Part shown: positions 1,716 to 38,423 of the stretch, piece by piece | Layout: each line of letters starts with the position of its first letter | How positions within the stretch are numbered: the first letter of the stretch is position 1 | IMG/VR virus record: IMGVR_UViG_3300010429_001737 | Source of the DNA: a virus | Lineage: Duplodnaviria > Heunggongvirae > Uroviricota > Caudoviricetes | Reading direction: 5' to 3' (one strand) | DNA: 64,000 nucleotides | Translations under genes and position numbers: made by a program | Notes under the pieces: generated by a model | The model's database searches: none | The model's input: the letters and a program-made list of their open reading frames with translations, nothing else | Told to the model about the DNA's origin: nothing

Positions 1716-1945
1716 AAAACACTAAAGTTGAAATAAACGGAAAAGATGTAACAGAAGCAAAATGGTATGAAAAGTTGTTAATAGCATTAGCTATACCTTT
1801 TGTTATATTTTTCTTTCTAGCAATAGTTTTCTTAATATTAGGCATTGTTGTCGTTGTTATGGCTTTCTTAATAATTTTAGCATTTATTTTAATTCCAATT
1901 GCAATTATAGCAGCTCTATTGGGAGGTAAACGTGAAAAACATTAA
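1712..1945 (+). CDS. small membrane protein with two hydrophobic helices
   Basis: ATGA overlap with the preceding gene. Long hydrophobic core IALAIPFVIFFFLAIVFLILGIVVVVMAFLIILAFILIPIAIIAALLGG. Start chosen at the coupled ATG (1712) instead of the track start (1694). Confidence 0.45.
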   Translation: MKNTKVEINGKDVTEAKWYEKLLIALAIPFVIFFFLAIVFLILGIVVVVMAFLIILAFILIPIAIIAALLGGKREKH

Positions 1946-2558
1946 AGTATTTATTAGGCCATCTTTGTATCAGAAGTTAGATTTTATAGCGAAAAATTAT
2001 AAAATAGAGTTAGGTGGTTATTTAACCGGTGAAACTAAAAATGGTAACGTTTACTTATACGATATATTATTACCCGAACAGGCTATTTCAACCGTTCATG
2101 TTAATATTACACCTAGAGACCAAGTACTATTACGAAAGAAATATGGAGACAAGTGCAAGAAAATAATTGGTCATTGGCATTCACATCACGAAATGATGCC
2201 TCATTGGTCGAGTGAAGACGAAAGTAATATGCGTGAGATTATGGAAAATCAGAAATTCTTTGTTTTTATAGTATCAAGCGTTCATGGACATACTATTAGA
2301 TTAAGTATACGTGACCCTATAAATATTGATTTAGAGAACTGTGAATTGTGTCTAAAGTCGTTGTCTTGGGATATGTTTATGAATTCAGTAAATAAAATAC
2401 TCGGGAAGAACGATAGTAAATACACAGATAAAATGTTAACTGATTTTTCGTATGACGACTCATTCTCTGATGAAAAAGACGGATATTCCGAATATTGTAA
2501 CTCAGAAGAAACACCAAATTCAGAGAACAATTTAAATAGTAATAAGGATTATATGTAA
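1932..2558 (+). CDS. JAB/MPN+ (JAMM) zinc metalloprotease, a deubiquitinase-like peptidase
   Basis: E...GGYLTGE followed by HWHSHHEMMPHWSSED fits the JAMM signature E-x(n)-H-x-H-x7-S-x2-D. Confidence 0.7.
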   Translation: MKNIKVFIRPSLYQKLDFIAKNYKIELGGYLTGETKNGNVYLYDILLPEQAISTVHVNITPRDQVLLRKKYGDKCKKIIGHWHSHHEMMPHWSSEDESNMREIMENQKFFVFIVSSVHGHTIRLSIRDPINIDLENCELCLKSLSWDMFMNSVNKILGKNDSKYTDKMLTDFSYDDSFSDEKDGYSEYCNSEETPNSENNLNSNKDYM

Positions 2559-2559
2559 C

Positions 2560-3246
2560 ATGAAAAATGAGATAAGTTTTATGAGACAGAAAGATTTGTT
2601 CGACCCCGTTAATCAAAGATTTAAAATAGTTGTCTTTGGTGCTGGAAGTTTGGGTTCATTTATTACTCTAAATTTAGCTAAATTAGGTTTTAATGACATT
2701 GAAGTGTTTGATTTTGATACAGTTGAAAGCCATAATATTCCAAATCAGTTTTATAAATCTAGTAGCATAGGAGAATTTAAAGTCGAAGCATTAAAAGAAA
2801 TAGTAAAAGATTTTACAGACGTAGAAATAACTACCCATAATGTTAAAGTTGATGAAAAAACAGAAATTCCAATTGGCGAAGTTGTTTATATTATAACATT
2901 TGATACATTAGAAGCAAGAAAGTTGATTTATGAAAAAGTTAAAGATTTTAAGTGTATAGTTTTAGATGTAAGAGTTGGAGGGGAAGAATATGAGATAAAC
3001 ATTGTTGACACAATGAAAGAAAACGAATTATCAGCATGGAAAAAAAGATTTGACATTGAAGTAACAGATTTACCATGTGGGGCACGCTCTATTATTTATA
3101 CGGTAGTTAATATTGCATCTGAAGTAAGTAACATAGTTAAAAAAATAAATAACAATGAAAATTATCCAGGTCGTCTTTTAAGAACTATGAAAAATTACAA
3201 TATTTTAAACAATCTAAATCAAAAGGGAGGTAAAACATATGAGTAA
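2560..3246 (+). CDS. E1-like ThiF/MoeB/UbaA-family adenylyltransferase
   Basis: Rossmann motif VVFGAGSLGSFITLNLAKLG followed by DFDTVESHNIPNQF, which matches the ThiF consensus G-x-G-x-x-G...D-x-D-x-V-x-x-S-N-L-x-R-Q. A candidate catalytic Cys sits in DLPCGAR. Confidence 0.7.
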   Translation: MKNEISFMRQKDLFDPVNQRFKIVVFGAGSLGSFITLNLAKLGFNDIEVFDFDTVESHNIPNQFYKSSSIGEFKVEALKEIVKDFTDVEITTHNVKVDEKTEIPIGEVVYIITFDTLEARKLIYEKVKDFKCIVLDVRVGGEEYEINIVDTMKENELSAWKKRFDIEVTDLPCGARSIIYTVVNIASEVSNIVKKINNNENYPGRLLRTMKNYNILNNLNQKGGKTYE

Positions 3247-4714: not shown

Positions 4715-5049
4715 CTACTTATAATGTTAAAATTTTTACTAGAGAGTATGGTGTAGAATTACATGTTAGCGATAGTATATGTTTTCTATGTGGAGAACCT
4801 TTTAATTCTACAACACACAAAAAGACAAAACATCATTCTATTCCAAAGTTTCTAAAACCAAAATTTAATGTTGTTGTTCCAATAGGCAAATCGTGTCATC
4901 ATGAAATGAATAAAATCTTCGAACCTAAATTATTATATCACAAGAACAGTGTAAAAATGTTGATGGATAGTTTAACAAAAAATCATCTTAAAGTTATGAA
5001 TAAAGTTAAAAAAATTCATGACAATATTGACACAGAGGTGAAAAAATAA
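4711..5049 (+). CDS. HNH endonuclease
   Basis: CFLCGEP...TKHHSIPKF...GKSCHHEMN gives a CxxC...HH...CxxH arrangement typical of the HNH zinc-finger nuclease. Confidence 0.55.
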   Translation: MTTYNVKIFTREYGVELHVSDSICFLCGEPFNSTTHKKTKHHSIPKFLKPKFNVVVPIGKSCHHEMNKIFEPKLLYHKNSVKMLMDSLTKNHLKVMNKVKKIHDNIDTEVKK

Positions 5050-5050
5050 A

Positions 5051-5257
5051 ATGGACATCGACGTTATAAAAAGAAACATTGGAAAGCATTGTAAAATTAT
5101 TTTAAAAAATAATTATGAATACACAGCAGTGATACCAGACTTCAATGGTACTTCGTTTGAAATAAAGGATAAGTTTAATAAAACCACTATCATTGAATGT
5201 TCTTTCATTGCGTTTATACAAGTGCAAGATGAAAATCAGGAGGATTATAAACAATGA
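5051..5257 (+). CDS. hypothetical protein (68 aa)
   Basis: ORF coupled to the primase gene by an ATGA overlap. Confidence 0.4.
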   Translation: MDIDVIKRNIGKHCKIILKNNYEYTAVIPDFNGTSFEIKDKFNKTTIIECSFIAFIQVQDENQEDYKQ

Positions 5258-8200
5258 TTGATATTCCTGAAAATTTGAGAAAGGGTACTTATCGATTCGT
5301 TAGACTTGAGAAGGAAACCAAGCGGCCTGTTGACAAAAACTGGACTACTGAAAATAATTATGCATTCGATAGTCCTATTATAATTGACTGGATTGCTAAT
5401 GGCAATAATTATGGCTGTTGTGGAGGATTCGGAGGTTTAGTGATTTTAGATTTAGATAATATGGATTTTGTATATGAGATAGAAGATTTGTTACCATCAA
5501 CCTTTACAGTAGAAACTGGTTCTTCAAAAAGACATTATTATTTTGAAGTTGATAATCCTGAAAAGATAATTTTGGATAAAGACGGAAAACACATTGGAGA
5601 AATACAAGGTGCTGGCGCTCAATGTGTTGGGCCGGGTAGTATCCATCCTGTTACAAAAAAAGAATATAAGGTTATTAATGATATTCCAATAGCTAAGCTA
5701 GATACCCCTTTGATTAATTATATTAAGGAAAATTATTCAATAATGAAGAATTTTGAAACAAAAAGCCCGATGTGGAATAAATACCAGACGAATAGTATTT
5801 CTGACCAAATACGTTTAACTGATTTAATTGATACTAGTAAATTTAAAAAGACACCTGCCGGTGAATTGTATGGCAGTCATCCTATTCATGGTAGTTCTAC
5901 CGGGATGAACTTTTTTATTAATCCTGATAAGAATCTCTGGCACTGCTTTACAGGAAACCAAATTATTTTTACAGAGGCGGGAATGAAGAAAATAAAAGAT
6001 GTTGCTGTCGGTGAGAAAATATGGGGAACTAATAAAAGAATACAAAAAGTGAAGACGAAGTTTGCGAGGAAGTTTACTGGAAAAATGTATACAATTGATA
6101 CCAGTTATATACATCCGGCGATTAGAGTTACTGAAGGTCATCCGTTTTTAGTTGGAAGTTTGACATATAAACATCGTCGTTATTACAAAGATGATTTACA
6201 AAATGTAAAAATAAATTGGAAAAACGTTGAAAATATTGTTCCCGGAAAAGACTATTTAATGATAAAGAAAAGCTTTGGTAATTTGAATCAAATTGATATG
6301 AGACCGTTTAAGAATAAGAATCATCCATCTAGAGTTTCTGATGTTCTTTTATTAGACAAGGAGCTTGGCGAATTAATCGGATGGTGGCTAGCGGAAGGTA
6401 GCATTACAAAAACTAGTCATGGCTATCCTCGAATAAACTTTACACTATCATATTATGAAACAGAAAATATAAAAAGATTGCAATATTTATTGCAAAAAAA
6501 ATTAAAAGTTAAAGCGACGATTCGTAGATATAAGGACAGGGGAACCTCGATTATTCGAATAGGATGTGGTCCCTTTGCAAGATTTTTAGAACATTATTTT
6601 AGAAAAGGCGCTAAAAATAAACAACTTGGGATATTTGTTAATGCTAATCGTGATTTTCTTGATGGACTGACACAAAGTTATATTAAGGGTGATGGTCATG
6701 AATCTGTTAATAAACGCTCAGTTAGTTCTGTTTCGGAAAAATTGTGTCGTGAAATTCAGTTTGTTCTTTTACGACTCGGGTATAATTATAGAATGCCGAC
6801 TCCTCGACCAGCAAAGCAAAAGTTCGATAAAAAAAGAAACGTGTATTATAATTCAGCCCTAACGTGGCGAATTAATTATAATAAAGTAAAAAAACAAGAT
6901 AAGTTTTTTCAAAACGACGAATATATGTTTTTAGGTATAAATAAAATTACACATAGAACATGTCGTGAAATGGTATATAACCTAGAAACAGAAGACCATA
7001 CTTATCTTTTACCATTTATTACTCATAATTGTTTTCGTGATATGTCAGGGGGCGACTCTCTCGCGTGGATTGCGATTCAGGAAGGAATATGTCAATGTCA
7101 TGATTTTTCCGATGGTGGAAAAAAACTAAGAGGTAAAGATTTCTTAGATGTAATTAAAATAGCAAAAGAAAAGTATAACTTAAAAATCGATATGGACAAA
7201 GTCGCTAAGATGCCTCTAAAAACATGGGAGGATTACCAAATTTCACCAGTATTATTAGATAATTTATCTCTTGACGGTTTGGAATTAGTTTATTCTGAAG
7301 ATGTTAAGAATCTTAATGTTCCCGATGTTGAGTGGTTAGTTGATGAAATTATACCTATTAATTCATTTTATGTCTTTGCCGGAAGAAGCGGAGCATATAA
7401 AACATTGTCATCATTGCATATGGCTTTTTGTATTTCAGAAGGACTTCCTGTGTATGGGAAATATAAGACAAAACAAATGCCAGTTTTATATCTTAATGAA
7501 GAAAACACATGGGAAATATTTAAACCGATGGTTGAAAATGCTAGGAATGGGTTACGAACACAAGGGTCGAAGGAATTATCTTTTTCAACATTTCAGAATT
7601 TATCATTAGATATGGTTGATGTAAGTGGACGGGCAAAATTAGAGAAAATGATAATTAAATCTGGAGCCAAGGTAATATTTTTTGATTCTTTTAAGAGATA
7701 TATTAGGTTTGATGAAAATGATGCCAATAAAGTAAATGAATTTTTTAATTTTATACTTAAACCTCTTAGAATAAAATATGGATTAACAATTATAGTTCTA
7801 CATCATACAAAGAAAGAAAATCCTAACTCAAAATATACTGTAGATAAAAAGGACTTAATAAGGGGGTCTAGCGACTTAGTTAATATAGCTGATGGAATTT
7901 TATTTTTTGAAAAAGGAGTAAGACCTTTAACATATACTTTATATCAACTTAAATCTAGAGTATCAGAGGAATTCGACCCGAAGATGATAAAAATAATGTA
8001 TGATAAGGATGGGGGATTTGGTTTTGAAGAACTAACAAGTGCATCTAAAGATGTTGAAAAGTTAGCTACAGATGCCTGTGCAAATGAAATGTTTGAACAT
8101 ATTATGGCAACTAGTATGGGTGAGTTTAAAGCTGAAGTTATGCACGAAAGGTATGATGCAAAGTATAAAAAAGGCCCCGTAACAAGTGCGCTAAATAAAC

Positions 8201-8343
8201 TTCAGACTCAAGAAATATTGTTAAAGTCATCAAGAGGTATGCTTAAAGTAAATAAATTACATCCAACAGTTCAAGATTATGAAAACGGAAGAATAGATTT
8301 AGATAAATGTCAAAGGCTGTTAGATTCTGAAAATCCAGATTAA
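5254..8343 (+). CDS. DNA primase-polymerase fused to a RecA-family (AAA_25/DnaB-like) replicative helicase; intein-containing precursor
   Basis: The N-terminal prim-pol-like region (GCCGGFGGLVILDLD, HYYFEVDN) is followed by a zinc motif, HPIHGSSTG...NLWH-C. After intein removal this motif reads NLWHCFRDMSGGD. The C-terminus carries Walker A VFAGRSGAYKT, Walker B VIFFDSF and the RepA/DnaB-type IIVLHHTKK motif. Confidence 0.85.
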   Translation: MIDIPENLRKGTYRFVRLEKETKRPVDKNWTTENNYAFDSPIIIDWIANGNNYGCCGGFGGLVILDLDNMDFVYEIEDLLPSTFTVETGSSKRHYYFEVDNPEKIILDKDGKHIGEIQGAGAQCVGPGSIHPVTKKEYKVINDIPIAKLDTPLINYIKENYSIMKNFETKSPMWNKYQTNSISDQIRLTDLIDTSKFKKTPAGELYGSHPIHGSSTGMNFFINPDKNLWHCFTGNQIIFTEAGMKKIKDVAVGEKIWGTNKRIQKVKTKFARKFTGKMYTIDTSYIHPAIRVTEGHPFLVGSLTYKHRRYYKDDLQNVKINWKNVENIVPGKDYLMIKKSFGNLNQIDMRPFKNKNHPSRVSDVLLLDKELGELIGWWLAEGSITKTSHGYPRINFTLSYYETENIKRLQYLLQKKLKVKATIRRYKDRGTSIIRIGCGPFARFLEHYFRKGAKNKQLGIFVNANRDFLDGLTQSYIKGDGHESVNKRSVSSVSEKLCREIQFVLLRLGYNYRMPTPRPAKQKFDKKRNVYYNSALTWRINYNKVKKQDKFFQNDEYMFLGINKITHRTCREMVYNLETEDHTYLLPFITHNCFRDMSGGDSLAWIAIQEGICQCHDFSDGGKKLRGKDFLDVIKIAKEKYNLKIDMDKVAKMPLKTWEDYQISPVLLDNLSLDGLELVYSEDVKNLNVPDVEWLVDEIIPINSFYVFAGRSGAYKTLSSLHMAFCISEGLPVYGKYKTKQMPVLYLNEENTWEIFKPMVENARNGLRTQGSKELSFSTFQNLSLDMVDVSGRAKLEKMIIKSGAKVIFFDSFKRYIRFDENDANKVNEFFNFILKPLRIKYGLTIIVLHHTKKENPNSKYTVDKKDLIRGSSDLVNIADGILFFEKGVRPLTYTLYQLKSRVSEEFDPKMIKIMYDKDGGFGFEELTSASKDVEKLATDACANEMFEHIMATSMGEFKAEVMHERYDAKYKKGPVTSALNKLQTQEILLKSSRGMLKVNKLHPTVQDYENGRIDLDKCQRLLDSENPD
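5944..7029 (+). mobile_element. intein (about 362 aa) with a LAGLIDADG homing-endonuclease domain, inserted in the primase zinc motif
   Basis: Starts with CFTGNQIIFTE...VTEGHPFLV (N-terminal Hint blocks). Two LAGLIDADG-like motifs (LGELIGWWLAEGS and FLDGLTQSYIKGDGH). Ends with ITHN, and the next extein residue is Cys (CFRDM). In frame with the host ORF. Confidence 0.8.
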
Positions 8344-8345
8344 AT

Positions 8346-9143
8346 ATGAACCAAAAGAAGAACGAAGATAAAGCATATAGAAGAAAACGAAGGCAAATGT
8401 CACGCCACGGGAATCCCATTACTTATGCAGAACAATATCCGTACCCATGGAATAAAGGATTAACAATGGCTGATGACGAAAGATTGAAAGAACAAAGCAA
8501 ACGATTGAAAGAAACGGGAACGTGGAATAAAGGTTTAAAAAAACAAAATGATAAAAGAATAAAGAAAATTGCATTGGCATCAAGCGGAAAAAAGAATCAT
8601 TGGTTTGGAACACATGGGCCAAATTATGGTAATACAGGAAAAAAGAGTTTTATGTATGGAAAACGAAGACCCATAAACGTAAGAGAGAAAATAAGTAGAA
8701 GTTTAGTGGGTCGGTTTACTGGTCGAAATAGTCCGAATTTCGGTAGAGTACCGTCTCATGGAAAATCAGAATATGTAAAGACGTTAGGGCATTATGTTAG
8801 AAGCACATGGGAAAGAAATATTTGCTTACTTTTAAAGAATAATAAAATTACATATAGATATGAACCTGAGGTTTTCGATTTAGGATGTTTTTCATATTGC
8901 CCCGATATAATTTGTAAAAACAAAATTGTTATCGAAGTCAAAGGTTATTTTAGAAGAAATACTGACATTGAAAAGTTACGATTATTTAAAAAACAATTTC
9001 CTGGTTATCGGTTAATTCTTATCACATCAAAATCAATTCTAAAAAACAACGAAAGGGGTTTAGAGTTTATTGACCATCTTGTTAAATATGATGATTTTCT
9101 GGGATATACAAAAAACGATTTGAAAAAAATGCTAAGATGGTAA
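8346..9143 (+). CDS. putative PD-(D/E)xK nuclease with an N-terminal basic repeat (NUMOD-like) DNA-binding region; possibly a free-standing homing endonuclease
   Basis: The N-terminal half carries repeated basic G/K/N-rich modules (WNKGL...GKKNHWFG...GKKSFMYGKRRP...). The C-terminal half carries CPDIICKNKIVIEVKGY, consistent with a PD...E-x-K catalytic core. Confidence 0.4.
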   Translation: MNQKKNEDKAYRRKRRQMSRHGNPITYAEQYPYPWNKGLTMADDERLKEQSKRLKETGTWNKGLKKQNDKRIKKIALASSGKKNHWFGTHGPNYGNTGKKSFMYGKRRPINVREKISRSLVGRFTGRNSPNFGRVPSHGKSEYVKTLGHYVRSTWERNICLLLKNNKITYRYEPEVFDLGCFSYCPDIICKNKIVIEVKGYFRRNTDIEKLRLFKKQFPGYRLILITSKSILKNNERGLEFIDHLVKYDDFLGYTKNDLKKMLRW

Positions 9144-10531
9144 ACATAAACGATTTTCCGTTTTTATATGAATACCAAAAGGAAGGTGTGCTAGCTTTGC
9201 TTAACGGAAAACAATTGCTTTTAGATTCTGTCGGATTGGGAAAAAGCGTGCAATCTTTAGTATATTGTGAAATAATGAATTATCCAAAAGTTCTTATTGT
9301 TTGTCCAAGTCCGTTGAAAGAGAATTTTGCGAATGAAATTGCGAAATTTTTAAAAAAAGAATGTTTAATATTGGATGGAAATCTAGAAGAAAGGAAATCA
9401 ATATTCGAGAATTATAAGAAAAGTAATATTAGATATTTAATATGTAATTATGAAAAACTTCTTTCTCGAAACGAGTTTTTGTTTGATTTCTTTTTTCATT
9501 GTATAATATTAGACGAAATTCATAGGATAAAAAATTATAAAAGTAAAACTTATAAAAATGCCATAAAGTTAAAAACAGGATATAGAATCGGATTAACAGC
9601 TACCATGATAACTAATACTCCAATTGAAGCTTATGCCATTGTTAATTTTCTAAAACCTTATTATTTTAAATATAATGAATTTATGAATAAATATGCTGTT
9701 ATGGGGATTATATATCATGACTTTCGTCGTGACAGAGATGTTATCGGACCCGTTGCATGGAAAAATTTGGACGATTTATATGAAAAAATAAAACCATTGA
9801 TGATTAAAAGAAAAGCAGAAGATGTATTACCACAATTACCAGAAACGATTTATAAAAATTATTATGTCACTCTTTCATCTTATGAACAGGAAATTCATGA
9901 TTTCTACTTTAAGAAAATGAAAGAATGTTATGAAAAACGTGATGACCAAATGTTCTCGTATTTATCTCTAATGCAACAAGTGGCATGTGGATGCCGGATG
10001 ATAAAGGGAAGTTTGAGTGAGAATTTAATAAATATCGAAAAAGATGAAAATTCTAAGTTAAAAGTTTTAAAAGAAATATTGGAGGATTTGGGTGATGAAA
10101 GAGTTTTAATGTTTACGAAGTTTGAAAGAGTAACTAGAATTATCGCGGAAGAGATTGGAACAGATAAATGTTATGTAGTAACGGGTGATACAAAAAATAA
10201 AATTGCTGCAATCGAGGAATTCAAAAACAGTGATAAAAAATATCTTATTGCGACAGATTGTTTAGGTATGGGTGTAAATTTGGAATTCTTGCATATTCTG
10301 ATAAATTATGACTTGGGTTTTACCCCTGCAAAAATGATTCAACGTAGTGGGCGACTACAGCGTCTAACTCAAGTGAACAAAATGCTTGTAATTAATTTAA
10401 TTGCTCGTAACACATATGAGGATAAGATAGTTAAAATATTAGAGGGTAAACAGCGGTTGATAAACGAGTCTATAGAAGGGATATCATATGGATTAAGTGA
10501 CAAAGAAGTGATAAGAGAACTAGTAGGATAA
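9137..10531 (+). CDS. SNF2/SWI2-family (SF2) helicase
   Basis: Motif I LLLDSVGLGKSVQSL, DExH box ILDEIHRIKN, motif III GLTATMITN, and the C-terminal helicase motif MIQRSGRLQRLTQ. Confidence 0.8.
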   Translation: MVNINDFPFLYEYQKEGVLALLNGKQLLLDSVGLGKSVQSLVYCEIMNYPKVLIVCPSPLKENFANEIAKFLKKECLILDGNLEERKSIFENYKKSNIRYLICNYEKLLSRNEFLFDFFFHCIILDEIHRIKNYKSKTYKNAIKLKTGYRIGLTATMITNTPIEAYAIVNFLKPYYFKYNEFMNKYAVMGIIYHDFRRDRDVIGPVAWKNLDDLYEKIKPLMIKRKAEDVLPQLPETIYKNYYVTLSSYEQEIHDFYFKKMKECYEKRDDQMFSYLSLMQQVACGCRMIKGSLSENLINIEKDENSKLKVLKEILEDLGDERVLMFTKFERVTRIIAEEIGTDKCYVVTGDTKNKIAAIEEFKNSDKKYLIATDCLGMGVNLEFLHILINYDLGFTPAKMIQRSGRLQRLTQVNKMLVINLIARNTYEDKIVKILEGKQRLINESIEGISYGLSDKEVIRELVG

Positions 10532-10612
10532 TTTATGTGATAAAAGTAATAACATTTATAAAGATTAAAATTGTTAATTATTTAACATAAAAACACAAGG
10601 AGGAAAAAACAA

Positions 10613-10762
10613 ATGGTAGCAACTGAATGGCAAGCACACTTAAAGAAGACATATGCTGAAATGAAAAAGAAGAATAAAAATGTTAAATTAAGTGATGCAA
10701 TGAAGGCAGCAAAAAAGACCTATTGCCCAAAAAATAAGGATAAGAAGAAAAAGAAGAAGTAA
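10613..10762 (+). CDS. small lysine-rich basic protein (49 aa)
   Basis: AAGGAGG ribosome-binding site 8 nt upstream of the ATG. Lys-rich tail KNKDKKKKKK. Confidence 0.3.
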   Translation: MVATEWQAHLKKTYAEMKKKNKNVKLSDAMKAAKKTYCPKNKDKKKKKK

Positions 10763-10810
10763 TTTTTCGTTAATAACAATATTTAAATATTTAGCTTTTT
10801 TATTTTATTT

Positions 10811-10972
10811 ATGAAAATCGCAATAATCACAACGGAGAGAGGTTATCCAATCTTCGCAGTGAAGGGCGCGACGATTAATGCTGTGATTAAACGTTTCTTA
10901 CTTCGTTTTCCAGATTTTACAGAACGAGAATTTAAGAAACTTTATTCGATATCGTTTATCGATTTAATCTAA
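10811..10972 (+). CDS. small hypothetical protein (53 aa)
   Basis: ORF in the gene-poor spacer. No recognisable motif. Confidence 0.2.
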   Translation: MKIAIITTERGYPIFAVKGATINAVIKRFLLRFPDFTEREFKKLYSISFIDLI

Positions 10973-10991
10973 ACTGATGGTGGAAAAAGAA

Positions 10992-11141
10992 ATGAGTGAT
11001 ATACAAGAAACAGAAAAGAAAGAGATAAAGAGGACAAAATGTGAAAGATATTCAAGAATCGTAGGATATCTAAGGCCTTTAGAACAATGGAATGTGGGAA
11101 AACAAGCAGAGTGGCATGACAGAGTGATGTTTTCTGTTTAA
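10992..11141 (+). CDS. 49 aa protein resembling the C-terminal glycyl-radical domain of anaerobic ribonucleotide reductase (NrdD)
   Basis: TKCERYSRIVGYLRPLEQWNVGKQAEWHDRV mirrors the NrdD C-terminus (Cys of the zinc ribbon, an R-[IV]-x-G-Y-L glycyl-radical motif, W-N-x-G-K-Q-x-E). Far too short to be a complete NrdD. Confidence 0.4.
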   Translation: MSDIQETEKKEIKRTKCERYSRIVGYLRPLEQWNVGKQAEWHDRVMFSV

Positions 11142-11142
11142 A

Positions 11143-11167
11143 AATTAATAATAATATTTATAAACTC
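11143..11167 (+). promoter_or_regulatory. promoter variant AATTAATAATAATATTTATAAACTC
   Basis: Upstream of 11186. The TTTATAAACTCT core recurs at 63664 before the 63693 gene. Confidence 0.45.
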
Positions 11168-11185
11168 TGATTATTTAATTCATAT

Positions 11186-11410
11186 ATGAAATATGAAATA
11201 GTTGTATTTACAAAAAATAATAGAAAGAATTTTGAACTGATGCGTGGCGTAAGTAATGCCGTTGGAGAGATGTTTGTTGCAACTGGAACAAGAAGTACTC
11301 CTCTTGGATACATTATTTATGTTAATGGGACGCAGAATAATTATTTACAATTCAAAAGAAGGTATTTCAGAGAGATAAACAACCGTGAGTTAAGGATACG
11401 TGAAGTGTAG
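11186..11410 (+). CDS. hypothetical protein (74 aa)
   Basis: ORF preceded by a TTTATAAACTCTGATT promoter variant. Confidence 0.4.
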   Translation: MKYEIVVFTKNNRKNFELMRGVSNAVGEMFVATGTRSTPLGYIIYVNGTQNNYLQFKRRYFREINNRELRIREV

Positions 11411-11449
11411 AAATGTTTAAATATATTAAATTTATAATTTTATAGTAAA

Positions 11450-11689
11450 ATGGGCCACAAATTAAAAATTGCAGTTTTGGCAACGATTGTGTCATGGTTG
11501 ACGTTAGGTACTCTTGGTATTTGGACTAAAGTTCTGTTAATGAAGTATGATGCATTTTTTGTTGAATACATGAATATTATTTTCATCGTTTCGTCTATTC
11601 TTTTATTCATCTTTATTATTATATCGTTAATATCGATTAGGCTTCTGGTTAAAAATAATATAGCTGGAATTCCGTCTGCAATAAAATGA
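11450..11689 (+). CDS. small membrane protein
   Basis: Two hydrophobic helices. Coupled to the next ORF. Confidence 0.4.
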   Translation: MGHKLKIAVLATIVSWLTLGTLGIWTKVLLMKYDAFFVEYMNIIFIVSSILLFIFIIISLISIRLLVKNNIAGIPSAIK

Positions 11690-11913
11690 TAACGAAAACA
11701 AAATATCCTAAGGTATATGTTGCAAATGGCGTTTTACGAGTTGCTACGATGGATATTAATATTCATAATCAGGAAATAACTGCATATTCGGATAGACAAG
11801 CTAGGTTTCTTTTGGCGAAAGAAATAAAAGAATCTACTTTAAAGAAAATGGCTATACCCGGTATTATGGGCGCAATAACTCGTTCTAAAATAGATATTAG
11901 ATTAAAAAGATAA
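11686..11913 (+). CDS. hypothetical protein (75 aa)
   Basis: ORF with an ATGA overlap to the previous gene. Confidence 0.35.
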   Translation: MITKTKYPKVYVANGVLRVATMDINIHNQEITAYSDRQARFLLAKEIKESTLKKMAIPGIMGAITRSKIDIRLKR

Positions 11914-11943
11914 TTTTATATACTATATTCTAGTATCATTTTT

Positions 11944-12486
11944 ATGAAACAATTAGTCATTTTGTTAATGGTCTTTATGACTTTGACGACTGTTACTGCG
12001 AATACGATAAAGATGGATTCGTTTAATGTTTCTCTTGAGAATACTTGGGACTTAAACACGGAATACTCTTTGTTTATTTATACATACGGCATTAATGGTT
12101 CTAATGTCGATATCACGGATTTAAAAATAAGTATTTATGGAAACGTCTCTCTAGAGGAAAGTGATTTATATCGAAAAGACGTTGGTATATATTTTAAGAA
12201 TTATATTATTAATGCATCAAATAGCACTTCGTTCATGATAAATGTTACAGCTTACGATGGAAGTAAAGTATTAGAATTAACTAGAAACGTCTCGGTTTCT
12301 CAGAAGTCGTCTTTGGAGAGTGTTTATGAAACTACAAAGAAATATTTATATAATACTTATGATAAATTCATTAATAATATTCAAGAATTTTGGTTGGTAT
12401 GGGTGATTGTTATAATGGTCATGTTGACTGTTATCGTCTTTATCGATATGTTTTTAAAAGATAGGAAGAAGAACAATGAAAACTAA
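11944..12486 (+). CDS. secreted/anchored glycoprotein-like protein (signal peptide, C-terminal TM)
   Basis: N-terminal signal sequence MKQLVILLMVFMTLTTVTA, multiple NxS/T sequons and a C-terminal hydrophobic anchor. Confidence 0.5.
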   Translation: MKQLVILLMVFMTLTTVTANTIKMDSFNVSLENTWDLNTEYSLFIYTYGINGSNVDITDLKISIYGNVSLEESDLYRKDVGIYFKNYIINASNSTSFMINVTAYDGSKVLELTRNVSVSQKSSLESVYETTKKYLYNTYDKFINNIQEFWLVWVIVIMVMLTVIVFIDMFLKDRKKNNEN

Positions 12487-12865
12487 AAACTATTCATTGA
12501 TTATCATCGGAACTTTAGTGTTTTTAGTACTATATATGTTTGTTATAAATACGTTTTCATTGTACAGTTTTTCAGATATCTCAAGCGACGATTTGAGTAT
12601 TTCAAACAGCGCAGATATAAAAATAGGCGTTAGTGATAAAGTGGATATTAGTGTTAAACGGGAAAGATTTTATGGATATTACATTGAGAACACAGTCGGT
12701 AATAGATATTCAAAGGATTTATATTTATTCCGTTTGTTTAAAATTCCACTAGTTATGAACTCGTTTCAATTTATTTATGCTCATGTTATTGTATTAGTTT
12801 TAGTTTTAGTGTCACTTGTATTATCATCGGTAATATATTTTTCTGAAAGGAGGTATGAGAAATGA
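12476..12865 (+). CDS. membrane protein (129 aa)
   Basis: N- and C-terminal hydrophobic helices. Confidence 0.4.
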   Translation: MKTKNYSLIIIGTLVFLVLYMFVINTFSLYSFSDISSDDLSISNSADIKIGVSDKVDISVKRERFYGYYIENTVGNRYSKDLYLFRLFKIPLVMNSFQFIYAHVIVLVLVLVSLVLSSVIYFSERRYEK

Positions 12866-13656: not shown

Positions 13657-16600
13657 ATGGTTAAAAAACGTAGCTTATTATCACTAGTATTCTTATTTGT
13701 GCTTTCGTTAGTATTATTAGCTACAACGATATATTCTGACGATATTTCTATTGACAAAACGCCTAGAGAAATAAAATTTGATTATAATTCAATCACATAT
13801 AAAAATCCTGATAATACATATACATCGTCAATATATTTTGATGCAATAAATCTTGACAAAATTGTTAATGTTACAAATAAAGGTGATGATATAAACATTA
13901 AATGGAAGAATTATGAGGTTGATATTATATTAAACGTTAAAGAAAAAAATAAGGAAAAGATTAAAATTGGTGATTTAAAGAATTCAAATCTTGAGTATGT
14001 GAAAACGATAAAGGCTAAGGGCGATGAATATGAATTCTTTTGGTTGTTAAATGATACATCGAAGAAAAGTTTTGATTTAGAATATGTAACAATAGAAGTT
14101 GTAAATAAAACTCCAATGACTATAATAGCTGAAAATACTCAGATAATAATGGGAGATGGGTTATATATTGATTTAAACGATTTAGTCGATTCTAATTATA
14201 CGCTTTCAAAACTGAATGAGAAAGAGATTAAGGTTGAGTCTAATGCAATACTTGGTTCTACATTTGATACAGATTCAATATTATTAGACCCGACTGTTAG
14301 AATAAATGTGTCGATGGATAACTATATTAGGGGTGATACCGAGCAATTTAAATCATATAATTATGGAGCTGCAACTTCTGTTTCGATTAATTATCCTGGA
14401 ACACTAAGAACTTTAATGTATTTCCCGCTAACATCGATACCTGCTAATGCTTCTATTTCTGAAGCTTTATTATACTTAAGAGCTATTAACGGGCCAACAA
14501 CATCTGCTAATATTTCCACATACCCATTACTAAAATCTTGGAACGAAGGGACTTCTTCTGCCGGCGCTAATTCAGCATTTATAAATGGGTCTACTTGGAT
14601 GGAGAGATGGTATGGTGATAATAAAAATGATGGTTGTAGTGGAAGTACTGACCCGGACTGGTGTACAAACGGAACTGGTGTTTCTGACTATAATGCTTCG
14701 TTGCAAGTTAATAATGTTATTAGGGCAAATGCAGGAGGAACATGGGTAAATTTGTCGATGCTTACATATGTTAATAAATCAGTTCATGGAGAAATGGAAT
14801 GGTATGGGATTGTCTTTTGGACAAATACTTCTGCATCATCAGGATATCAGTTTGCTTCAAGACAATATACAACTGTAACGACATATAGGCCATATGTTAA
14901 TATTACTTATAGTTTACCAAGTCCAATAACTAATTTAATTTTTCCAGTTAATAATACTAATACATCTAATGGATTATTTAATTTTACATGTAATGCGTCG
15001 ATAGATTCTTCTTTACCAGGAACCAATATTACTAAGTTAGTTATTTTTTATTCTAATGATTCAGCCGGGGTAAATTGGAAAGGAAATATGACGTTTAATG
15101 AAACGAGTGGTATAACTGCTCCGAACAAAACAATTCAACAGAACTGGAGTACTACTTTAACGACAAATGGAGTATATTATTGGGGTTGCGCCGTGAATGT
15201 TTCGTATGGCGGCACAGATTCTAGTGGTCTTGTTCAACCAACAGCTCCGCTAAGATTCATCTTTGATAATATAGGTCCAAATGTAACATATCAAGCTCCA
15301 ACACCAGATGGTGGATATGTGTCGAGCGTTGTAATTAATGTTTCAGTTAATGATAGCTTGAATGCTATAGATACTTGTATATTACAATGGAATTCGACAA
15401 CAGCATTAACAAATTACACAATGACAAAGTCGACGGGATATTGTAATTATACAATGTCTGTTACAACAGGAACATATTATTTTAAAGTTTATGCTAATGA
15501 TTCACTTGGTAATTTAGGAAACGCAAGTCTAAGAAATTTTACGTTTGATAATACACCGCCTAGTATTAACGTTACTTATCCATTAAGTCGTGTTTACATG
15601 GATTTATATAGTTATTCTCTTGGATTAAATGTGACAGCATCTGATGTTGGTTCAAGTTTGCAGACATTTAAGTATTCTTTAAATGGAGCGGCTAATACAA
15701 CATTTACTCCTAATATAACATTAACAACATTAGTTCCTGGGTTAAATAACTTAACTGTCTATGTTAACGATTCAGCTGGAAATATTAATTCATCCTCTGT
15801 TAATTTTACTTTACGTTTTACTCCTAAGATAAATAATACAATAATTGGTAACAGTTCTACAAATTATTCACGATACAATTTAACAAACGGTTTAGTTGGA
15901 TGGTGGAAGTTTGATGAGATAACAAATAATATTGCTTATGATACAAGTTTATATAGAAATAATGCTACGTTATTTCAGAGTATGCAAAATTTGTTAGTTA
16001 ACGGTGATTTTGAAAGTGGAACATGGGCAAATGCCGGCGACTGTTGTTGTGCTTCTTGTTCATGTGTTGCCGGGTCAAATTGTTCTGCAGGCGGAGGTGG
16101 CAGTAATTGTACTTGTGCAAACGGCGGTACTTGTTATTATTTAGCTAATGTCGCGACAGATAAAATCAATGGTGATTATTCACTTAATCTTACTGGAAAT
16201 AAATCATGTGCCTGTAATAATAAAGCTATGAGTAGTTTTACAATTAATAAAACTTATACATTAAGTTTTTGGTATAAAGATGTTTCTGGTCCAGATAGTC
16301 CAAGATATTGTATGTGGATTTCGGGGAGAAATGTATGCGACCCTGCAGAGACGATTTCTGTGTCAGATAACAATTGGCATTATTATCAGAAATCGTTTAA
16401 AATTTTAGATGGCACTACTGCTGCAGCTTTGTATTTATATGGCGGTAATGGTGCAACAACAGAATCTACTAATTTGTATGATGATGTTAGAATTGTTGAA
16501 GGTCCTGGTTGGGACATTAATGGCAAAATTGGAAATGCATTATTTGTTGCTGTAAATAATGCAACAATACCACATATACCTGCGTATAATTTTACAGGTG

Positions 16601-19600
16601 GTTTTTCAATGTCATATTGGGTTAAATTTAATATGGATATGACCTCTTCAAATCCATCAGTTGCTCAAAGATTAGTTAATAAGAATAACCAATGGATTAA
16701 TTACATTGGCACAGATTCCCGTAACTTAAGATTTTATTTGAATAATGGTACAACATGGGAAGATATGTCTTTATGGTCAAGTAAAACAAGTTGGAATAAG
16801 GGCCAATGGTATTTAGTAACATATACAGTTAGTGCAAGAACAAATCCAACAATAACTCTTTATATTGATGGTTCACAAGATAGTACAACATCAAAAACAG
16901 GAACTTGGCAAACATCAAGAGGTAATATTACAATAGGGTATGCATCTGAATTTACCACAGGTGAATTAAATGGTACAATTGATGAATTAAGGTTTTATAA
17001 TTATTCGTTGACAGCAACACAAGTTAGAGATTTATACCAAGTTACAAATCCAACTTTTCAAGAGTCTTCAAATACAACCATTACAGTAACAATAATAGAT
17101 GAAGATTCACCGGCATCTAGTTTATACTACCAATGGTTTGTCGGTCCAGTTTCTGTATTATCTGGTTTAGCTCAGAGCGTATTTAATTATGTTTTCACTC
17201 AACCGAGTACTAATGTTTATTTGATAATAAACGATTCCAATAATTATCAAGTTTTTCAGAATTGGACAATAAATACAACTTACGATAATCCAACAATATC
17301 TTATGTTTTACCAACACCAAGTGATAGTAGTGTACAAACTGGCACAACTGTTACAATAAATGTTTCAGCAAATGATACATCAGGTATTGATAAATGTATA
17401 TTACAATGGAATTCAACTAGTTCGATAAACAATTATACGATGACCCGGAGTGGAATATATTGCAATTACACAGTTTCAATTGCTACACCCGGTTATTACT
17501 ACTTTAAGGTTTATGCTAATGATACACTAGGAAACTGGTTTAATGAATCGTTAAGAACTATTTTAAAAAATAGTCCTCCTGTACAACCAACTGTTACTAT
17601 TATCCCTGCTACTGCGTATAAAAATTCAACATTAAATTGTACAGCTAATACAACAGATGTGGACGGACACACAATATCATATTTTTATCAATTTCTAACA
17701 ACTAATGGTACTATTGTGCAAGATTATGGATATACTGCACCAACAGAATATTGTTATCAAGAAACAGCAAATATTTCGACAGCATGTGGTGGATTAGACA
17801 CTGGAAAATATTGGTATACTACAGACACCACAACTAATTATAATTATATTAATTATTCTAAGCCGTCTTTTGCTTCAAACAATAGCCTTTGGCATGTTAA
17901 ATATTCAAGAACGGCTAATGTTACAGTTAACTATACAATTCCATCAAGTTGTTGGGAACAAAGCACTTTAACAATGTATTTCTATCTGTCCGGAACATCG
18001 GGGTCTGCATCTAATATGCAATTTGGTTGTAAGAATGCAACGGGACTTGTTGCTATAGAAGGACCTTTTTCGTCAACGACTATTACTCGTACAACAACCG
18101 GTAGTCAGAGCGAATTATATGATGGCAATTGGGATAATGCGATAAGTTATTATAGTAATGTATGGTATCGGAACGCCGTTACAGCTGGGGGTGGCGTACC
18201 ACACGGAGTCTTTGAAGAAGCAATGTATTGGGCAAGAGAAGGAAGTTCTAATCTCTTTGATTGTAATGCCAGTTCACTGTGTGTCGCGGGTGAAAATATT
18301 ACATGTAATGTTAAAGCATATGATGGTTATGAAAATAGTACTGTAAATAATGCAACAAGACAGATTTCAGCATATGGAGCAACAACATCAACGTATGTCA
18401 TCGACCAAGCGTTAAACACTAATGTTGGTATAAATAGACGAGGTTCATATGGAAGAAGTAACTCTAATGCTTTAACTCTTATTATTAACATAAACAGGAA
18501 ATTACAAGATTTAACACAGTTTGTCGATTATTTTATTGTTTCTGTAACCATTGAGAACTCAGAAAATATGTTTAGAAGATTGAGTCAATCTATAAATATT
18601 AATGTTTTAACGAGTAGAATGTTAAACTTACAGAAAATTGTATCACAATCATTCTCGATTGATAACTTTGTTAATAAATTAAGAAGTGTTTTCAGTATGA
18701 CAACTCAATCAATTGCTCTTACAGAGAATATCGATTCAATCTTATCAGGTAAAAGGTTTACTACGCAGAATATTAATGTCGTGGATGATGTTGGTATAAA
18801 ATCAAATTTTAAGAGAAGTAATTTTTTATCAATGACAATAAACAATTTTGCTAATCGACTATTAAAATTATTTAGAATTGAAACACAAAGTATTTTATTA
18901 TATGAAAACGAATCAGATATTTTCTCTGGAAAAAGATTAGTTAATCAAAGTATTAATATTACAGATTCGACTTTCGACGTTTATTCTGGAAAAAGAATGA
19001 CATTTACTCAATTATCGGTTACAGCTTTGTCATCAGAATTTTCAAAATTCTTTAGAGTTTCTGATGATGAGGTTTCATTCTTTGATGATGTTACGTATAA
19101 TTTATTAAGGAGGAGGTTTGTGTATCAAAATTTGTCGTTTTTGGATACAACCGGTCGAGAGTATTTCGGAATTAGAAATATTGACCAAATTATCGTCTTT
19201 TCGTTGTCTTCATATAAGCCGTCGAGTCTTTACAATTCCGTGTCTTTAATGATAGGAGTGTCTGAATCGATTTATGAAAAAACAGCTATGAAAAGAGTTC
19301 TTGAGGATTTATTGGAATTCATAGACTCTATTAATAGAAAATTGTTTGGCAGTCGAGTTATAAACGATGTGATTAATGTTAATGAAGATATGTCAAGAAG
19401 AACACTATTATTAAGGTTACTTACTAATGGTATTTCAGTTGGAGATAGTGTTAATATTAGATTATTCGGAAGTCGGGTTATTAGTCAGGAAGTAAATATT
19501 AATGATGACATTTTTAGACAAAGTATAGTTTCAAAAGATATTACCGAACGGGTTAATATTTCTATCGTTAATAACAGAACATATTTAGGAAATAGAATAA

Positions 19601-21159: not shown

Positions 21160-21166
21160 AGTTTAA

Positions 21167-21203
21167 CAACAATATTTATATACGAGATTTTGTTATAAAA
21201 AAT
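21167..21203 (+). promoter_or_regulatory. leader/promoter shared by the giant-gene paralogs (..ATATTTATATACGAGATTTTGTTATAAAAAAT-ATG)
   Basis: Near-identical to 38393..38423 (AAATTTTATATACTGGGTTTTGTTATAAAGAAT-ATG). Both are followed by ATGAGAA and a signal peptide. Confidence 0.5.
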
Positions 21204-38376: not shown

Positions 38377-38392
38377 TGATATTATGTGACAA

Positions 38393-38423
38393 ATTTTATA
38401 TACTGGGTTTTGTTATAAAGAAT
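38393..38423 (+). promoter_or_regulatory. leader/promoter of the second giant gene (paralogous to 21167..21203)
   Basis: See the 21167 entry. Confidence 0.5.

What the first reader, a model, noticed from the sequence alone, without database searches (positions are those of the whole stretch)
10992..11141. Free-standing 49-aa ORF mimicking the NrdD glycyl-radical C-terminus
MSDIQETEKKEIKRTKCERYSRIVGYLRPLEQWNVGKQAEWHDRVMFSV carries the hallmark C-terminal elements of class III (anaerobic) ribonucleotide reductase: a zinc-ribbon Cys, the R-I/V-x-G-Y-L glycyl-radical motif and W-N-x-G-K-Q-x-E. It is only 49 aa long and sits alone in a 650-bp gene-poor spacer. I see three possible explanations. 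(a) It is a spare-part glycyl-radical module analogous to GrcA/YfiD but for NrdD, able to rescue an oxygen-cleaved host NrdD. (b) It is the remnant of an nrdD gene destroyed by rearrangement. (c) It is the 3' exon of an nrdD gene split by an intron or mobile element whose 5' part lies outside the window. Option (a) would be a new viral auxiliary function.
Basis: partly seen in the sequence, partly recalled or inferred. Interest (0 to 1): 0.65.

Follow-up and report, generated by a model that had tools for sequence, protein, structure and literature searches.

The report
Stand-alone NrdD glycyl-radical tail gene
A virus-like element carries only the 49-residue radical-bearing tail of the anaerobic ribonucleotide reductase, a piece its probable hosts already make as a separate small protein, so it looks like a replaceable radical subunit that keeps DNA-precursor synthesis running, a kind of part so far validated for only one other enzyme.

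Summary
The 49-aa ORF (window 10992-11141, +) is real. It matches the last 32 positions of Pfam NRDD (E=3e-9).

It is neither a remnant nor an exon. It belongs to a large family of stand-alone NrdD glycyl-radical "tails" that I could not find described in the searchable literature.

- **Cellular context.** In DPANN archaea and CPR bacteria nrdD is natively split. The body ends just after the zinc ribbon, a 38-86-aa tail cistron follows, then nrdG. Of the 120 closest Woesearchaeota-type bodies, 119 lack the tail.
- **This copy.** It is 85-88% identical to Woesearchaeota tails. It sits alone among small genes next to the replication module of a ~108.6-kb virus-like element. No NrdD body or NrdG was found in the ~73 kb I could read.
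- **Other viruses.** In IMG/VR, 78 of the 80 best-matching viral loci carry a tail with no body or activase; two of those are motif-broken. The archaeal virus ANMV-1 does the same.
- **Selection.** Viral tails are under the same purifying selection as cellular ones (dN/dS about 0.15).

Best explanation: an element-encoded, exchangeable glycyl-radical subunit that docks on the host's tail-less NrdD body and is activated by host NrdG. It is a functional analogue of GrcA/YfiD, not a homologue. This is biochemically unproven, and ~36 kb of the element is unseen.

The parts
10992..11141 (+). 49-aa ORF (MSDIQETEKKEIKRTKCERYSRIVGYLRPLEQWNVGKQAEWHDRVMFSV plus stop): stand-alone NrdD glycyl-radical tail
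   Evidence: ORF list and sequence. Called as a gene on ENA contig ERZ795055 NODE_92 with a PF13597 hit. Pfam NRDD E=3.2e-9 to the profile's C-terminal end.
11031..11132 (+). Conserved 34-codon core, R14-F47 (RTKCERYSRIVGYLRPLEQWNVGKQAEWHDRVMF). This segment is shared without gaps by viral tails, cellular split tails and fused NrdDs.
   Evidence: Alignments A1 and A2. Core is 88% and 85% identical to Woesearchaeota tails L091 and L095. pN 0.05-0.15 against pS 0.52-0.86 versus the nearest relatives.
11064..11066 (+). GGA codon of Gly25, the predicted glycyl-radical site in R-I-V-G-Y
   Evidence: Invariant in 44 and in 81 aligned homologues. Aligns with the RITGY of solved NrdD 8p23.
10979..10983 (+). 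GGTGG, a Shine-Dalgarno-like motif 8 nt upstream of ATG 10992
   Evidence: Read directly from the sequence. Cellular tail cistrons have similar GGAGG/GAGGT/GGTG motifs in 18 of 39 junctions. Function is inferred.
10977..10991 (+). Possible 5-codon N-terminal extension (MVEKE) from an in-frame upstream ATG
   Evidence: ORF list. Not used by the gene callers. It lies in the variable N-terminal part of the family.

Best explanation
The ORF encodes a functional, separately translated glycyl-radical subunit ('tail') of class III ribonucleotide reductase. It was captured from a DPANN-type host whose NrdD is naturally made in two pieces.

Proposed mechanism:
1. The host makes a roughly 680-aa NrdD body: ATP-cone, catalytic barrel and Zn ribbon, but no radical glycine.
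2. The element-encoded 49-aa tail docks into the barrel in place of, or in addition to, the host's own 40-55-aa tail.
3. Host NrdG (radical-SAM activase) abstracts a hydrogen from Gly25.
4. The glycyl radical generates the thiyl radical that reduces NTPs to dNTPs for replication of the element.

The tail is the oxygen-labile, sacrificial part of the enzyme, and it costs only 150 bp. Carrying it is therefore a cheap way to keep RNR capacity up during infection.

Shown here: homology, conservation, free-standing position, the native split in cellular relatives, and recurrence in viruses.

Inferred: docking on the host body, activation by host NrdG, the benefit to the element, and the identity of the host.
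For: **1. NrdD C-terminal homology with every family-invariant residue present** (E18, S21, R22, V24, G25, Y26, R28, P29, W33, K37, E40, R44).

**2. A tail can work in trans in nature.**
- 43 of the 80 best GTDB species genomes have the order nrdD body / 38-86-aa tail cistron / nrdG.
- Junction gaps run from -62 to +187 nt, in all three relative frames (12 of 39 in the same frame). Own start codons were taken in all 39; SD-like motifs precede 18.
- 119 of the 120 closest Woesearchaeota-type bodies lack the Gly motif.

**3. The window tail carries the lineage-specific CERYSR signature.**
- It is 85-88% identical to Woesearchaeota tails.
- Its nearest database relatives P0010, P0005 and P0002 sit in split nrdD operons: body-tail-nrdG with nrdR upstream for P0010, nrdR...body-tail for P0005, and tail-nrdG on a short contig for P0002.
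- GC is 0.32, against 0.34-0.36 in those host contigs.

**4. No body or activase near this copy.** tblastn and --max HMM searches of the window plus flanks (about 73 kb) find nothing better than E=0.45.

**5. The arrangement recurs.**
- 272 IMG/VR stretches encode a relative.
- 78 of the best 80 loci have no body or NrdG within about 6 kb either side.
- The whole 38.5-kb ANMV-1 record has only a 144-aa GRD protein.
- A profile search finds 4816 cluster representatives, and the best 150 are all 45-166 aa.

**6. Purifying selection equals that on working enzymes.** Median dN/dS is 0.146 for viral free-standing tails, 0.174 for cellular split tails and 0.170 for fused NrdDs.

**7. Location.** The gene lies about 460 nt downstream of a PrimPol-helicase / endonuclease / SNF2 replication module.
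Against: - There is no expression, binding or activity data.
- About 36 kb of the ~108.6-kb element could not be retrieved, so an unlinked body or nrdG cannot be excluded.
- The host is inferred only from tail similarity and GC content.
- No capsid or terminase was recognised in the window, so 'virus' rather than another mobile element is unproven for this contig.
- An AlphaFold model of the peptide alone was mediocre (pLDDT 71) and helical where NrdD has the Gly loop. It gives no structural support.
- A tail that binds the body but blocks it would conserve many of the same residues.
- The literature check covers open-access papers only.
Confidence: 0.6

Rival explanations
1. The tail partners with an element-encoded NrdD body (and perhaps NrdG) located in the ~36 kb of the genome that was not available. 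The element would then carry a complete but dispersed split class III RNR.
For: Two of 80 IMG/VR loci (L045, L076) do carry body, tail and nrdG. Methanobacterium virus PhiF1 carries a full nrdD. Part of the element is unseen.
Against: Wherever a body is present, in cells or viruses, it is immediately adjacent to the tail. Here there is none within at least 11 kb upstream and 61 kb downstream. None of the 120 closest bodies sits on a contig of this size; only the best 120 of 8000 are listed, so this is a weak negative. ANMV-1 lacks one in its entire record.
Confidence: 0.1
2. The tail is a takeover or inhibitory factor. It could occupy the host body, or titrate NrdG, without supporting catalysis. 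That could throttle host dNTP synthesis, exclude competitors, or re-tune regulation.
For: A small peptide that competes with a dissociable host subunit is a plausible hijack. Binding-surface residues would be conserved either way. No activity data exist.
Against: The radical Gly and its R-x-x-G-Y context are invariant. The pattern and strength of constraint are indistinguishable from cellular tails and fused enzymes. An element that replicates ~109 kb of DNA gains from dNTP supply. The gene sits beside the replication genes.
Confidence: 0.12
3. It is a hitch-hiking fragment spread by homing endonucleases that target the conserved nrdD 3' end. It would be retained without a function of its own.
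For: NUMOD3 homing-endonuclease genes occur in 20 of 59 distinct viral loci, sometimes directly next to the tail. A NUMOD3/endonuclease-I gene lies at window 8346-9143. nrd genes are classic endonuclease targets (PMC3653736).
Against: Those endonuclease genes are multi-copy and scattered in the same loci. The window's endonuclease gene did not join that cluster and is about 1.8 kb away. Saturated silent sites with dN/dS of about 0.15, and retained start codons, show long-term selection on the protein. Only 2 of 80 copies are visibly broken: L044 has a stop and L082 has GF.
Confidence: 0.05
4. It is a decaying remnant or a 3' exon of an nrdD gene destroyed or split by rearrangement, an intron or an intein.
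For: T4 and other phages have intron- or endonuclease-split nrdD (PMC3653736). Inteins are present in related cellular nrdD bodies and in this element's primase-helicase.
Against: There is no Rfam hit in the window at gathering threshold, or at E<=1 around the locus. The ORF has its own ATG and an SD-like motif. Flanking DNA is filled by unrelated small genes. Purifying selection is evident. The ORF starts at the same boundary as cellular tail cistrons.
Confidence: 0.03

Closest known systems
GrcA/YfiD of E. coli and Y06I of phage T4 (autonomous glycyl radical cofactors, 'spare parts' for pyruvate formate-lyase)
   Same: A small stand-alone protein consisting essentially of a glycyl-radical loop (R-x-x-G-Y). 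It is thought to be activated by the parent enzyme's activase and to insert into a large catalytic partner. A virus-encoded version exists in T4.
   Different: There is no detectable homology beyond the 7-residue motif (hhalign probability 0.3%), and no PF01228 hit. This protein derives from NrdD, not PFL. It is 49 aa against about 127 aa. Its likely partner is a body that is tail-less by gene structure rather than an O2-cleaved enzyme. Reviews state that spare parts are validated only for PFL (PMC8683613; PMC13450708).
[quoted passage not shown]
   Same: Homologous to the last ~32 residues, with the same invariant residues.
   Different: It lacks the ATP-cone, the 10-stranded barrel, the catalytic Cys loop and the Zn ribbon. 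It is a separate gene with no nrdD or nrdG neighbour.
Tail cistrons of split nrdD operons in DPANN archaea and CPR bacteria (seen here; not found described in the searchable literature)
   Same: Same start boundary just upstream of K-C-E-R/V-Y-S-R, same length class (38-86 aa), 85-88% identity to Woesearchaeota copies, and a shared CERYSR signature.
   Different: Cellular tails lie between the body and nrdG. This one is unlinked, on a mobile element.
ANMV-1 'nrdD' (AJP62049, 144 aa), published as an oxygen-sensitive ribonucleotide reductase
   Same: An archaeal-virus gene encoding only an NrdD glycyl-radical domain, with no body or nrdG in the record. It was read as a full RNR in PMC4372165.
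   Different: ANMV-1's protein keeps a full C-x2-C...C-x2-C zinc ribbon and an N-terminal extension (architecture C). The window protein is the minimal tail (architecture A).
Other split RNRs: NrdJa/NrdJb class II; intron-, intein- or endonuclease-split nrdA/nrdD of phages
   Same: They show that RNR catalytic subunits tolerate being made in pieces.
   Different: Those splits keep both pieces in one genome, usually adjacent. Here only the radical-bearing piece is present.

Membership tests
Class III RNR catalytic subunit NrdD (PF13597 / TIGR02487) | Sequence match to the family profile above the curated cut-off | tested here: met
   PF13597: 36.4 bits against a cut-off of 26.2, but only profile positions 531-562 of 562. 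TIGR02487: 36.6 bits against an equivalog cut-off of 326, so it fails as a full-length enzyme.
Class III RNR catalytic subunit NrdD (PF13597 / TIGR02487) | Radical glycine in the R-x-x-G-Y context near the C-terminus | tested here: met
   R22-I-V-G25-Y26. Invariant across 44 and 81 homologues.
Class III RNR catalytic subunit NrdD (PF13597 / TIGR02487) | Catalytic alpha/beta barrel with the thiyl-radical Cys loop (and usually an ATP-cone) | tested here: not met
   The protein is 49 aa. There is no barrel-encoding sequence anywhere in the window or its retrievable flanks.
Class III RNR catalytic subunit NrdD (PF13597 / TIGR02487) | C-terminal four-ligand zinc ribbon preceding the Gly loop | tested here: not met
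   Only one Cys (C17) is present. In split relatives the C-x2-H...C-x2-C motif is on the body.
Class III RNR catalytic subunit NrdD (PF13597 / TIGR02487) | Linked nrdG activase gene | tested here: not met
   No NrdG-like ORF was found (best HMM E=0.45) in about 73 kb.
Tail subunit of split NrdD (DPANN/CPR type, defined here) | Short ORF (38-86 aa) starting a few residues before K-C-E-x-Y-S-R-x-V-G-Y and ending about 25 residues after the Gly | tested here: met
   49 aa with the same boundaries. 85-88% core identity to L091, L095 and L007.
Tail subunit of split NrdD (DPANN/CPR type, defined here) | Position between the nrdD body and nrdG | tested here: not met
   It is flanked by unrelated small ORFs and lies downstream of an SNF2 helicase.
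Tail subunit of split NrdD (DPANN/CPR type, defined here) | Forms an active enzyme with a tail-less body and NrdG | not testable with these tools
   Needs reconstitution or a multimer model.
GrcA/YfiD autonomous glycyl radical cofactor (IPR011140, PF01228-type) | Homology to the PFL-type glycyl radical domain | tested here: not met
   No PF01228 hit at E<=10.
GrcA/YfiD autonomous glycyl radical cofactor (IPR011140, PF01228-type) | Free-standing small protein carrying only the radical loop, unlinked to the parent enzyme gene | tested here: met
GrcA/YfiD autonomous glycyl radical cofactor (IPR011140, PF01228-type) | Restores activity to a parent enzyme that lacks a working radical domain | not testable with these tools
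   Biochemical assay required.
Intron- or mobile-element-split phage nrdD (T4 sunY type) | Self-splicing intron or intein between exons, with the upstream exon present | tested here: not met
   Rfam: zero hits in the window. No upstream nrdD sequence.

The most novel reading that the evidence does not exclude
Stand-alone NrdD glycyl-radical tails would be a widespread class of virus- and mobile-element-encoded auxiliary genes, unrecognised in the literature I could search. They would sit on top of an equally unrecognised fact: in large DPANN and CPR clades class III RNR is a two-protein enzyme whose radical-bearing 5-kDa subunit is an exchangeable cartridge. Viruses would supply their own cartridge to host RNR. 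This would be the first 'spare-part' glycyl-radical system outside pyruvate formate-lyase.
Probability: 0.5. Interest if true: 0.85.

Novelty: new variant of a known kind. Interest (0 to 1): 0.72.

Why it matters
Two recent papers from the glycyl-radical field say spare-part proteins are validated only for pyruvate formate-lyase. They leave open whether such proteins exist for other glycyl radical enzymes (PMC8683613; PMC13450708). This locus and its relatives give a concrete, testable candidate for class III RNR.

- **A natural experimental system.** A two-piece NrdD (body, tail and NrdG in one operon) shows that the radical domain can work in trans. Dozens of virus-borne tails lack a partner gene.
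- **Annotation and host inference.** Short 'nrdD' calls in viral genomes are not reductases. The 144-aa ANMV-1 protein was published as an oxygen-sensitive RNR.
- **Oxygen tolerance.** Oxygen-sensitive dNTP synthesis in ultra-small anaerobes may be repaired by swapping a 5-kDa subunit.
- **Host linking.** A host-derived marker gene could help connect uncultured viruses to DPANN or CPR hosts.

Tried and rejected
- **Looked for a full nrdD or nrdG in the window.** Pfam on the large ORFs, tblastn with five NrdD and two NrdG queries, and --max HMM searches of six-frame translations all found nothing.
- **Tried to read the rest of the ~108.6-kb element.** Look-ups from window-end genes added about 8.2 kb downstream (L172) and about 0.8 kb upstream (L174). 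The single JGI metagenome scan returned only a distant relative (L176). About 36 kb remains unseen.
- **Used a Woesearchaeota body as a query.** The aim was to see whether any close body sits on a ~108.6-kb contig. None did among the best 120. This is a weak negative, because only the best 120 of 8000 are listed.
- **Intron or exon idea.** Rfam at gathering threshold on the window, and at E<=1 on 9500-12500, gave no hits. The promoter and terminator scan was not above shuffled expectation.
- **AlphaFold of the peptide with an 81-sequence alignment.** pLDDT was 71 and the model was helical, so it was judged uninformative. I did not run a fold search on it.
- **Homology to GrcA.** Rejected.
- **Recoding as the cause of cellular 'splits'.** Readthrough or frameshift is rejected because gaps and frames vary freely. 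Own start codons were taken at all 39 junctions and SD-like motifs precede 18.
- **Classification error found and fixed.** My first classification counted some in-frame-stop splits (for example L113) as full-length. I corrected this by anchoring on the Gly motif. L089's 'body' call was an artefact, removed by the HMM check.
- **Virus hallmark search.** PHROGs and Pfam on 30 window proteins found no capsid or terminase.
- **Cultured phages.** Only ANMV-1 (tail-type) and PhiF1 (full nrdD) matched.

Full report
**The observation.** An in-frame ATG at 10977 would add five residues. The protein matches the extreme C-terminus of Pfam NRDD (PF13597, E=3.2e-9, 36.4 bits against a cut-off of 26.2, profile 531-562 of 562). 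It also matches NCBIfam NrdD models (best E=2e-9) and, weakly, residues 708-737 of the solved Prevotella copri NrdD 8p23. The radical glycine is Gly25 in R-I-V-G-Y (codon 11064-11066). So the core observation is confirmed.

Two details are off. First, the ORF is not alone in a gene-poor spacer. It is one of six closely packed same-strand small ORFs that gene callers on the public contig also call. Second, the 'zinc-ribbon Cys' label is unverified, because in the closest relatives the C-x2-H...C-x2-C ribbon is on a different polypeptide.

**A family of short proteins.** A search of 5.8 billion proteins returned 43 hits. All were 39-83 aa, 58-87% identical, and carried the consensus RTKCExYSRIVGYLRPxxQWNxGKQAEWxDRKxF. 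A profile of these, run against 1.84 billion cluster representatives, gave 4816 hits at E<=1e-3 and 2089 at E<=1e-10. The best 150 were all 45-166 aa. No dedicated model exists in Pfam, NCBIfam or PHROGs. Only the tail end of full-length NrdD models matches.

**Cellular relatives: nrdD is natively split.** For P0037 and P0009, the short protein lies between a large nrdD (ATP-cone plus NRDD, here with an intein) and nrdG. The body ends just after ...SICPKHGY...YCPKCD. The tail begins M..RTKCERYSR, preceded by GGAGG- or GGGGGTGA-type ribosome-binding motifs.

A scan of one genome per GTDB species gave 594 hits. Among the best 80:
- 43 are split (body / tail / nrdG);
- 25 are fused;
- 10 are free-standing;
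- 2 are ambiguous.

The split ones are Woese-, Pace- and Micrarchaeota and Nanoarchaeota/Nanobdellota, Dojka- and Saccharibacteria, other Patescibacteria, Bipolaricaulota and others. In 39 measurable junctions the gap runs from -62 to +187 nt, and the two cistrons share a frame in 12 of 39, which is the chance expectation. SD-like motifs precede 18. This rules out readthrough, frameshifting and assembly error as the cause. With the Woesearchaeota body of L091 as query, 119 of the 120 closest bodies (at least 74% identical; named Pacearchaeota or Nanoarchaeota where named) lack the Gly motif. Only one (P0245) is fused. In this clade the two-protein enzyme is therefore the rule.

**Origin of the window copy.** Its 34-residue core is 88% and 85% identical to the Woesearchaeota tails L091 and L095, and 85% to L007. 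It shares their CERYSR signature, where other lineages have CEVYSR. The nearest database relatives P0010, P0005 and P0002 all sit in split nrdD operons: P0010 shows nrdR-body-tail-nrdG, P0005 shows nrdR...body-tail with no nrdG in the locus, and P0002 shows tail-nrdG on a 2-kb contig. P0004 (87%) is another free-standing copy with unrelated neighbours. GC content is similar: 0.32 against 0.34-0.36. The copy is not recent. Against its nearest relatives silent sites are saturated (pS 0.52-0.86) while pN is 0.05-0.15.

**What is, and is not, around it.** The window is almost entirely + strand, about 31% GC, and has no tRNA. Upstream lie a PrimPol-helicase with a LAGLIDADG intein, a NUMOD3/endonuclease-I protein and an SNF2 helicase. 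Downstream are small membrane-like ORFs and giant Laminin_G_3 proteins. The source is a ~108.6-kb contig (ENA ERZ795055 NODE_92).

No NrdD body or NrdG is detectable by tblastn, or by --max HMM search of six-frame translations (best E=0.45-0.58). These searches covered the window, 8.2 kb downstream (L172) and 0.8 kb upstream (L174). Rfam finds nothing in the window, so there is no intron signature.

I could not retrieve the remaining ~36 kb. No capsid or terminase was recognised in the window. 'Virus' is therefore likely but unproven for this particular element.

**The same arrangement in other viruses.** IMG/VR holds 272 stretches encoding a relative. Of the best 80 loci, 75 are intact free-standing ORFs (about 40-225 aa by first ATG; five have no in-frame ATG) and 2 have a broken motif. 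By HMM, only L045 and L076 carry a body and NrdG. About 743 kb of flanking DNA was examined. Neighbours include terminase, Bro-N/KilAC and 3D-domain genes, so these include bona fide tailed phages.

The GenBank archaeal virus ANMV-1 has a 144-aa 'anaerobic ribonucleoside triphosphate reductase' that is only a Zn ribbon plus the Gly loop. Nothing else NrdD- or NrdG-like occurs in its 38.5-kb record. Its authors read it as an oxygen-sensitive RNR (PMC4372165).

I saw three main architectures:
- **A:** the minimal tail (this window; DPANN and CPR).
- **B:** a tail with an NGDLxLDNGxxIP N-extension (many phages; Bipolaricaulota, Thermotogae, Caldisericota).
- **C:** Zn ribbon plus tail, 110-200 aa (ANMV-1; L072, L078, L083; Desulfobacterota genomes).

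**Selection.** On the ungapped 34-codon core, 59 distinct viral free-standing copies give pN/pS of 0.28 and a median dN/dS of 0.146. Cellular split tails give 0.174 and fused NrdDs 0.170, with the same residues conserved. This rejects the remnant hypothesis and makes a hitch-hiking fragment unlikely. That holds even though NUMOD3 homing-endonuclease genes are common, multi-copy and sometimes adjacent in those phage loci.

**Mechanism.** The most economical reading is an element-encoded copy of the host's dissociable radical subunit. It would dock in the host's tail-less NrdD barrel and be activated by host NrdG and SAM. It would then initiate nucleotide reduction, keeping dNTP supply up when host tail synthesis stops or tails are destroyed by oxygen. 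From established glycyl-radical chemistry, O2 cleaves the chain at the radical glycine. In a two-piece enzyme only the 5-kDa subunit would be lost.

Shown here: homology, conservation, autonomy of the gene, natural trans-function in relatives, and recurrence in viruses. Inferred: docking, activation, benefit and host identity.

Rivals are listed separately:
- an unlinked element-encoded body in the unseen DNA;
- an inhibitory or takeover tail;
- an endonuclease-borne passenger;
- a remnant or exon.

**Comparison with known systems.** Functionally it resembles GrcA/YfiD and T4 Y06I. It is not a member of that family: there is no PF01228 hit, and hhalign aligns only the 7-residue motif at probability 0.3%. 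It is homologous to the NrdD C-terminus but fails every other defining feature of the enzyme (barrel, ribbon, linked nrdG). Split RNRs are known (NrdJa/NrdJb; intron- or endonuclease-split phage nrdD/nrdA), but those keep both parts.

Literature searches for split, truncated or partial nrdD phrases found nothing. So did searches for NrdD with DPANN or Patescibacteria terms and for glycyl-radical domains acting in trans. Two papers state that spare parts are validated only for PFL, and that it is undetermined whether they exist for other glycyl radical enzymes. The search covers open-access papers and bioRxiv only.

**Verdict.** Option (a) is supported in modified form. Options (b) and (c) are not. 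I rate it a new variant of a known kind (an autonomous glycyl-radical protein, but for class III RNR, virus-borne, and rooted in a natively split enzyme). Interest is 0.72, and confidence in the proposed mechanism is 0.6.

Noticed in passing
L091-L170 (for example L091 2944-5138), L002, L007, L177, L178: nrdD is natively split into body and tail cistrons in many DPANN and CPR genomes. 119 of the 120 closest Woesearchaeota-type bodies lack the radical glycine. I found no description of this in the searchable literature.
   Followed up: yes
L175 (KP703175.1) 25525-25959, minus strand: The published ANMV-1 'nrdD' is a 144-aa Zn-ribbon plus glycyl-loop protein, not a reductase. The paper used it to infer an oxygen-sensitive RNR and an anaerobic host.
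   Followed up: yes
L139, L154, L160, L163 (Desulfobacterota and Thermodesulfobacteriota genomes), match at about 5001-5100: Free-standing 110-200-aa Zn-ribbon plus Gly-loop ORFs with no nrdD body or nrdG within 5 kb. These may be chromosomal GrcA-like proteins for NrdD, or prophage genes.
   Followed up: partly
L010-L089, for example L028 5303-5944, L036 5263-5928 and 6264-6884, L064 6264-6902: NUMOD3 homing-endonuclease genes are multi-copy in 20 of 59 distinct phage loci and sometimes directly flank the tail gene. They may use the conserved Gly-loop DNA as a homing target.
   Followed up: partly
L044 about 6001-6120; L082 about 6001-6111: Two viral copies look degenerate. L044 has an in-frame stop inside the motif, and L082 has G-F instead of G-Y.
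   Followed up: no
window 5254-8343 (+): A PrimPol plus AAA_25 helicase protein is interrupted by an intein with a LAGLIDADG endonuclease domain. Related cellular nrdD bodies (L002, L007) also carry inteins.
   Followed up: partly
window 1932-3246 (+): Adjacent Prok-JAB (1932-2558) and ThiF/E1-like (2560-3246) genes: a ubiquitin-like conjugation pair on the mobile element.
   Followed up: no
window 13657-21159, 21126-24851, 24889-27723 and 38376-47621 (+): Very large ORFs (2500, 1241, 944 and 3081 aa). They are rich in N-x-S/T sequons, with Laminin_G_3 (on the 2500-aa ORF, per the precomputed contig hits) and DUF2793 (on the 1241-aa ORF) as the only recognisable domains. No capsid or terminase was recognised in the window, so the particle type is unknown.
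   Followed up: partly
window 58123-60228 (+): A 701-aa protein with an N-terminal signal or TM segment, a long run of about 11-residue LNLNI.EQA.LI-type coiled-coil repeats, and a C-terminal TM segment.
   Followed up: no
window 62191-63081 (+): A Band_7/SPFH (prohibitin-like) protein encoded by the element. In a related short contig (L173) it appears as two ORFs.
   Followed up: no
window 54706-55509 (+): A Pfam RIFIN / Plasmodium_Vir hit right at threshold. It is probably compositional (low-GC, Lys/Asn-rich membrane protein) rather than homology.
   Followed up: no
L073, L080, L089 (viral); L145, L150 (cellular): A fourth tail variant (MxCKxKTEVYSRVVGYYRP...) sits at the N-terminus of a 150-190-aa protein with a Cys-rich C-terminal extension in viruses. 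The short form occurs next to nrdD bodies in cells.
   Followed up: no
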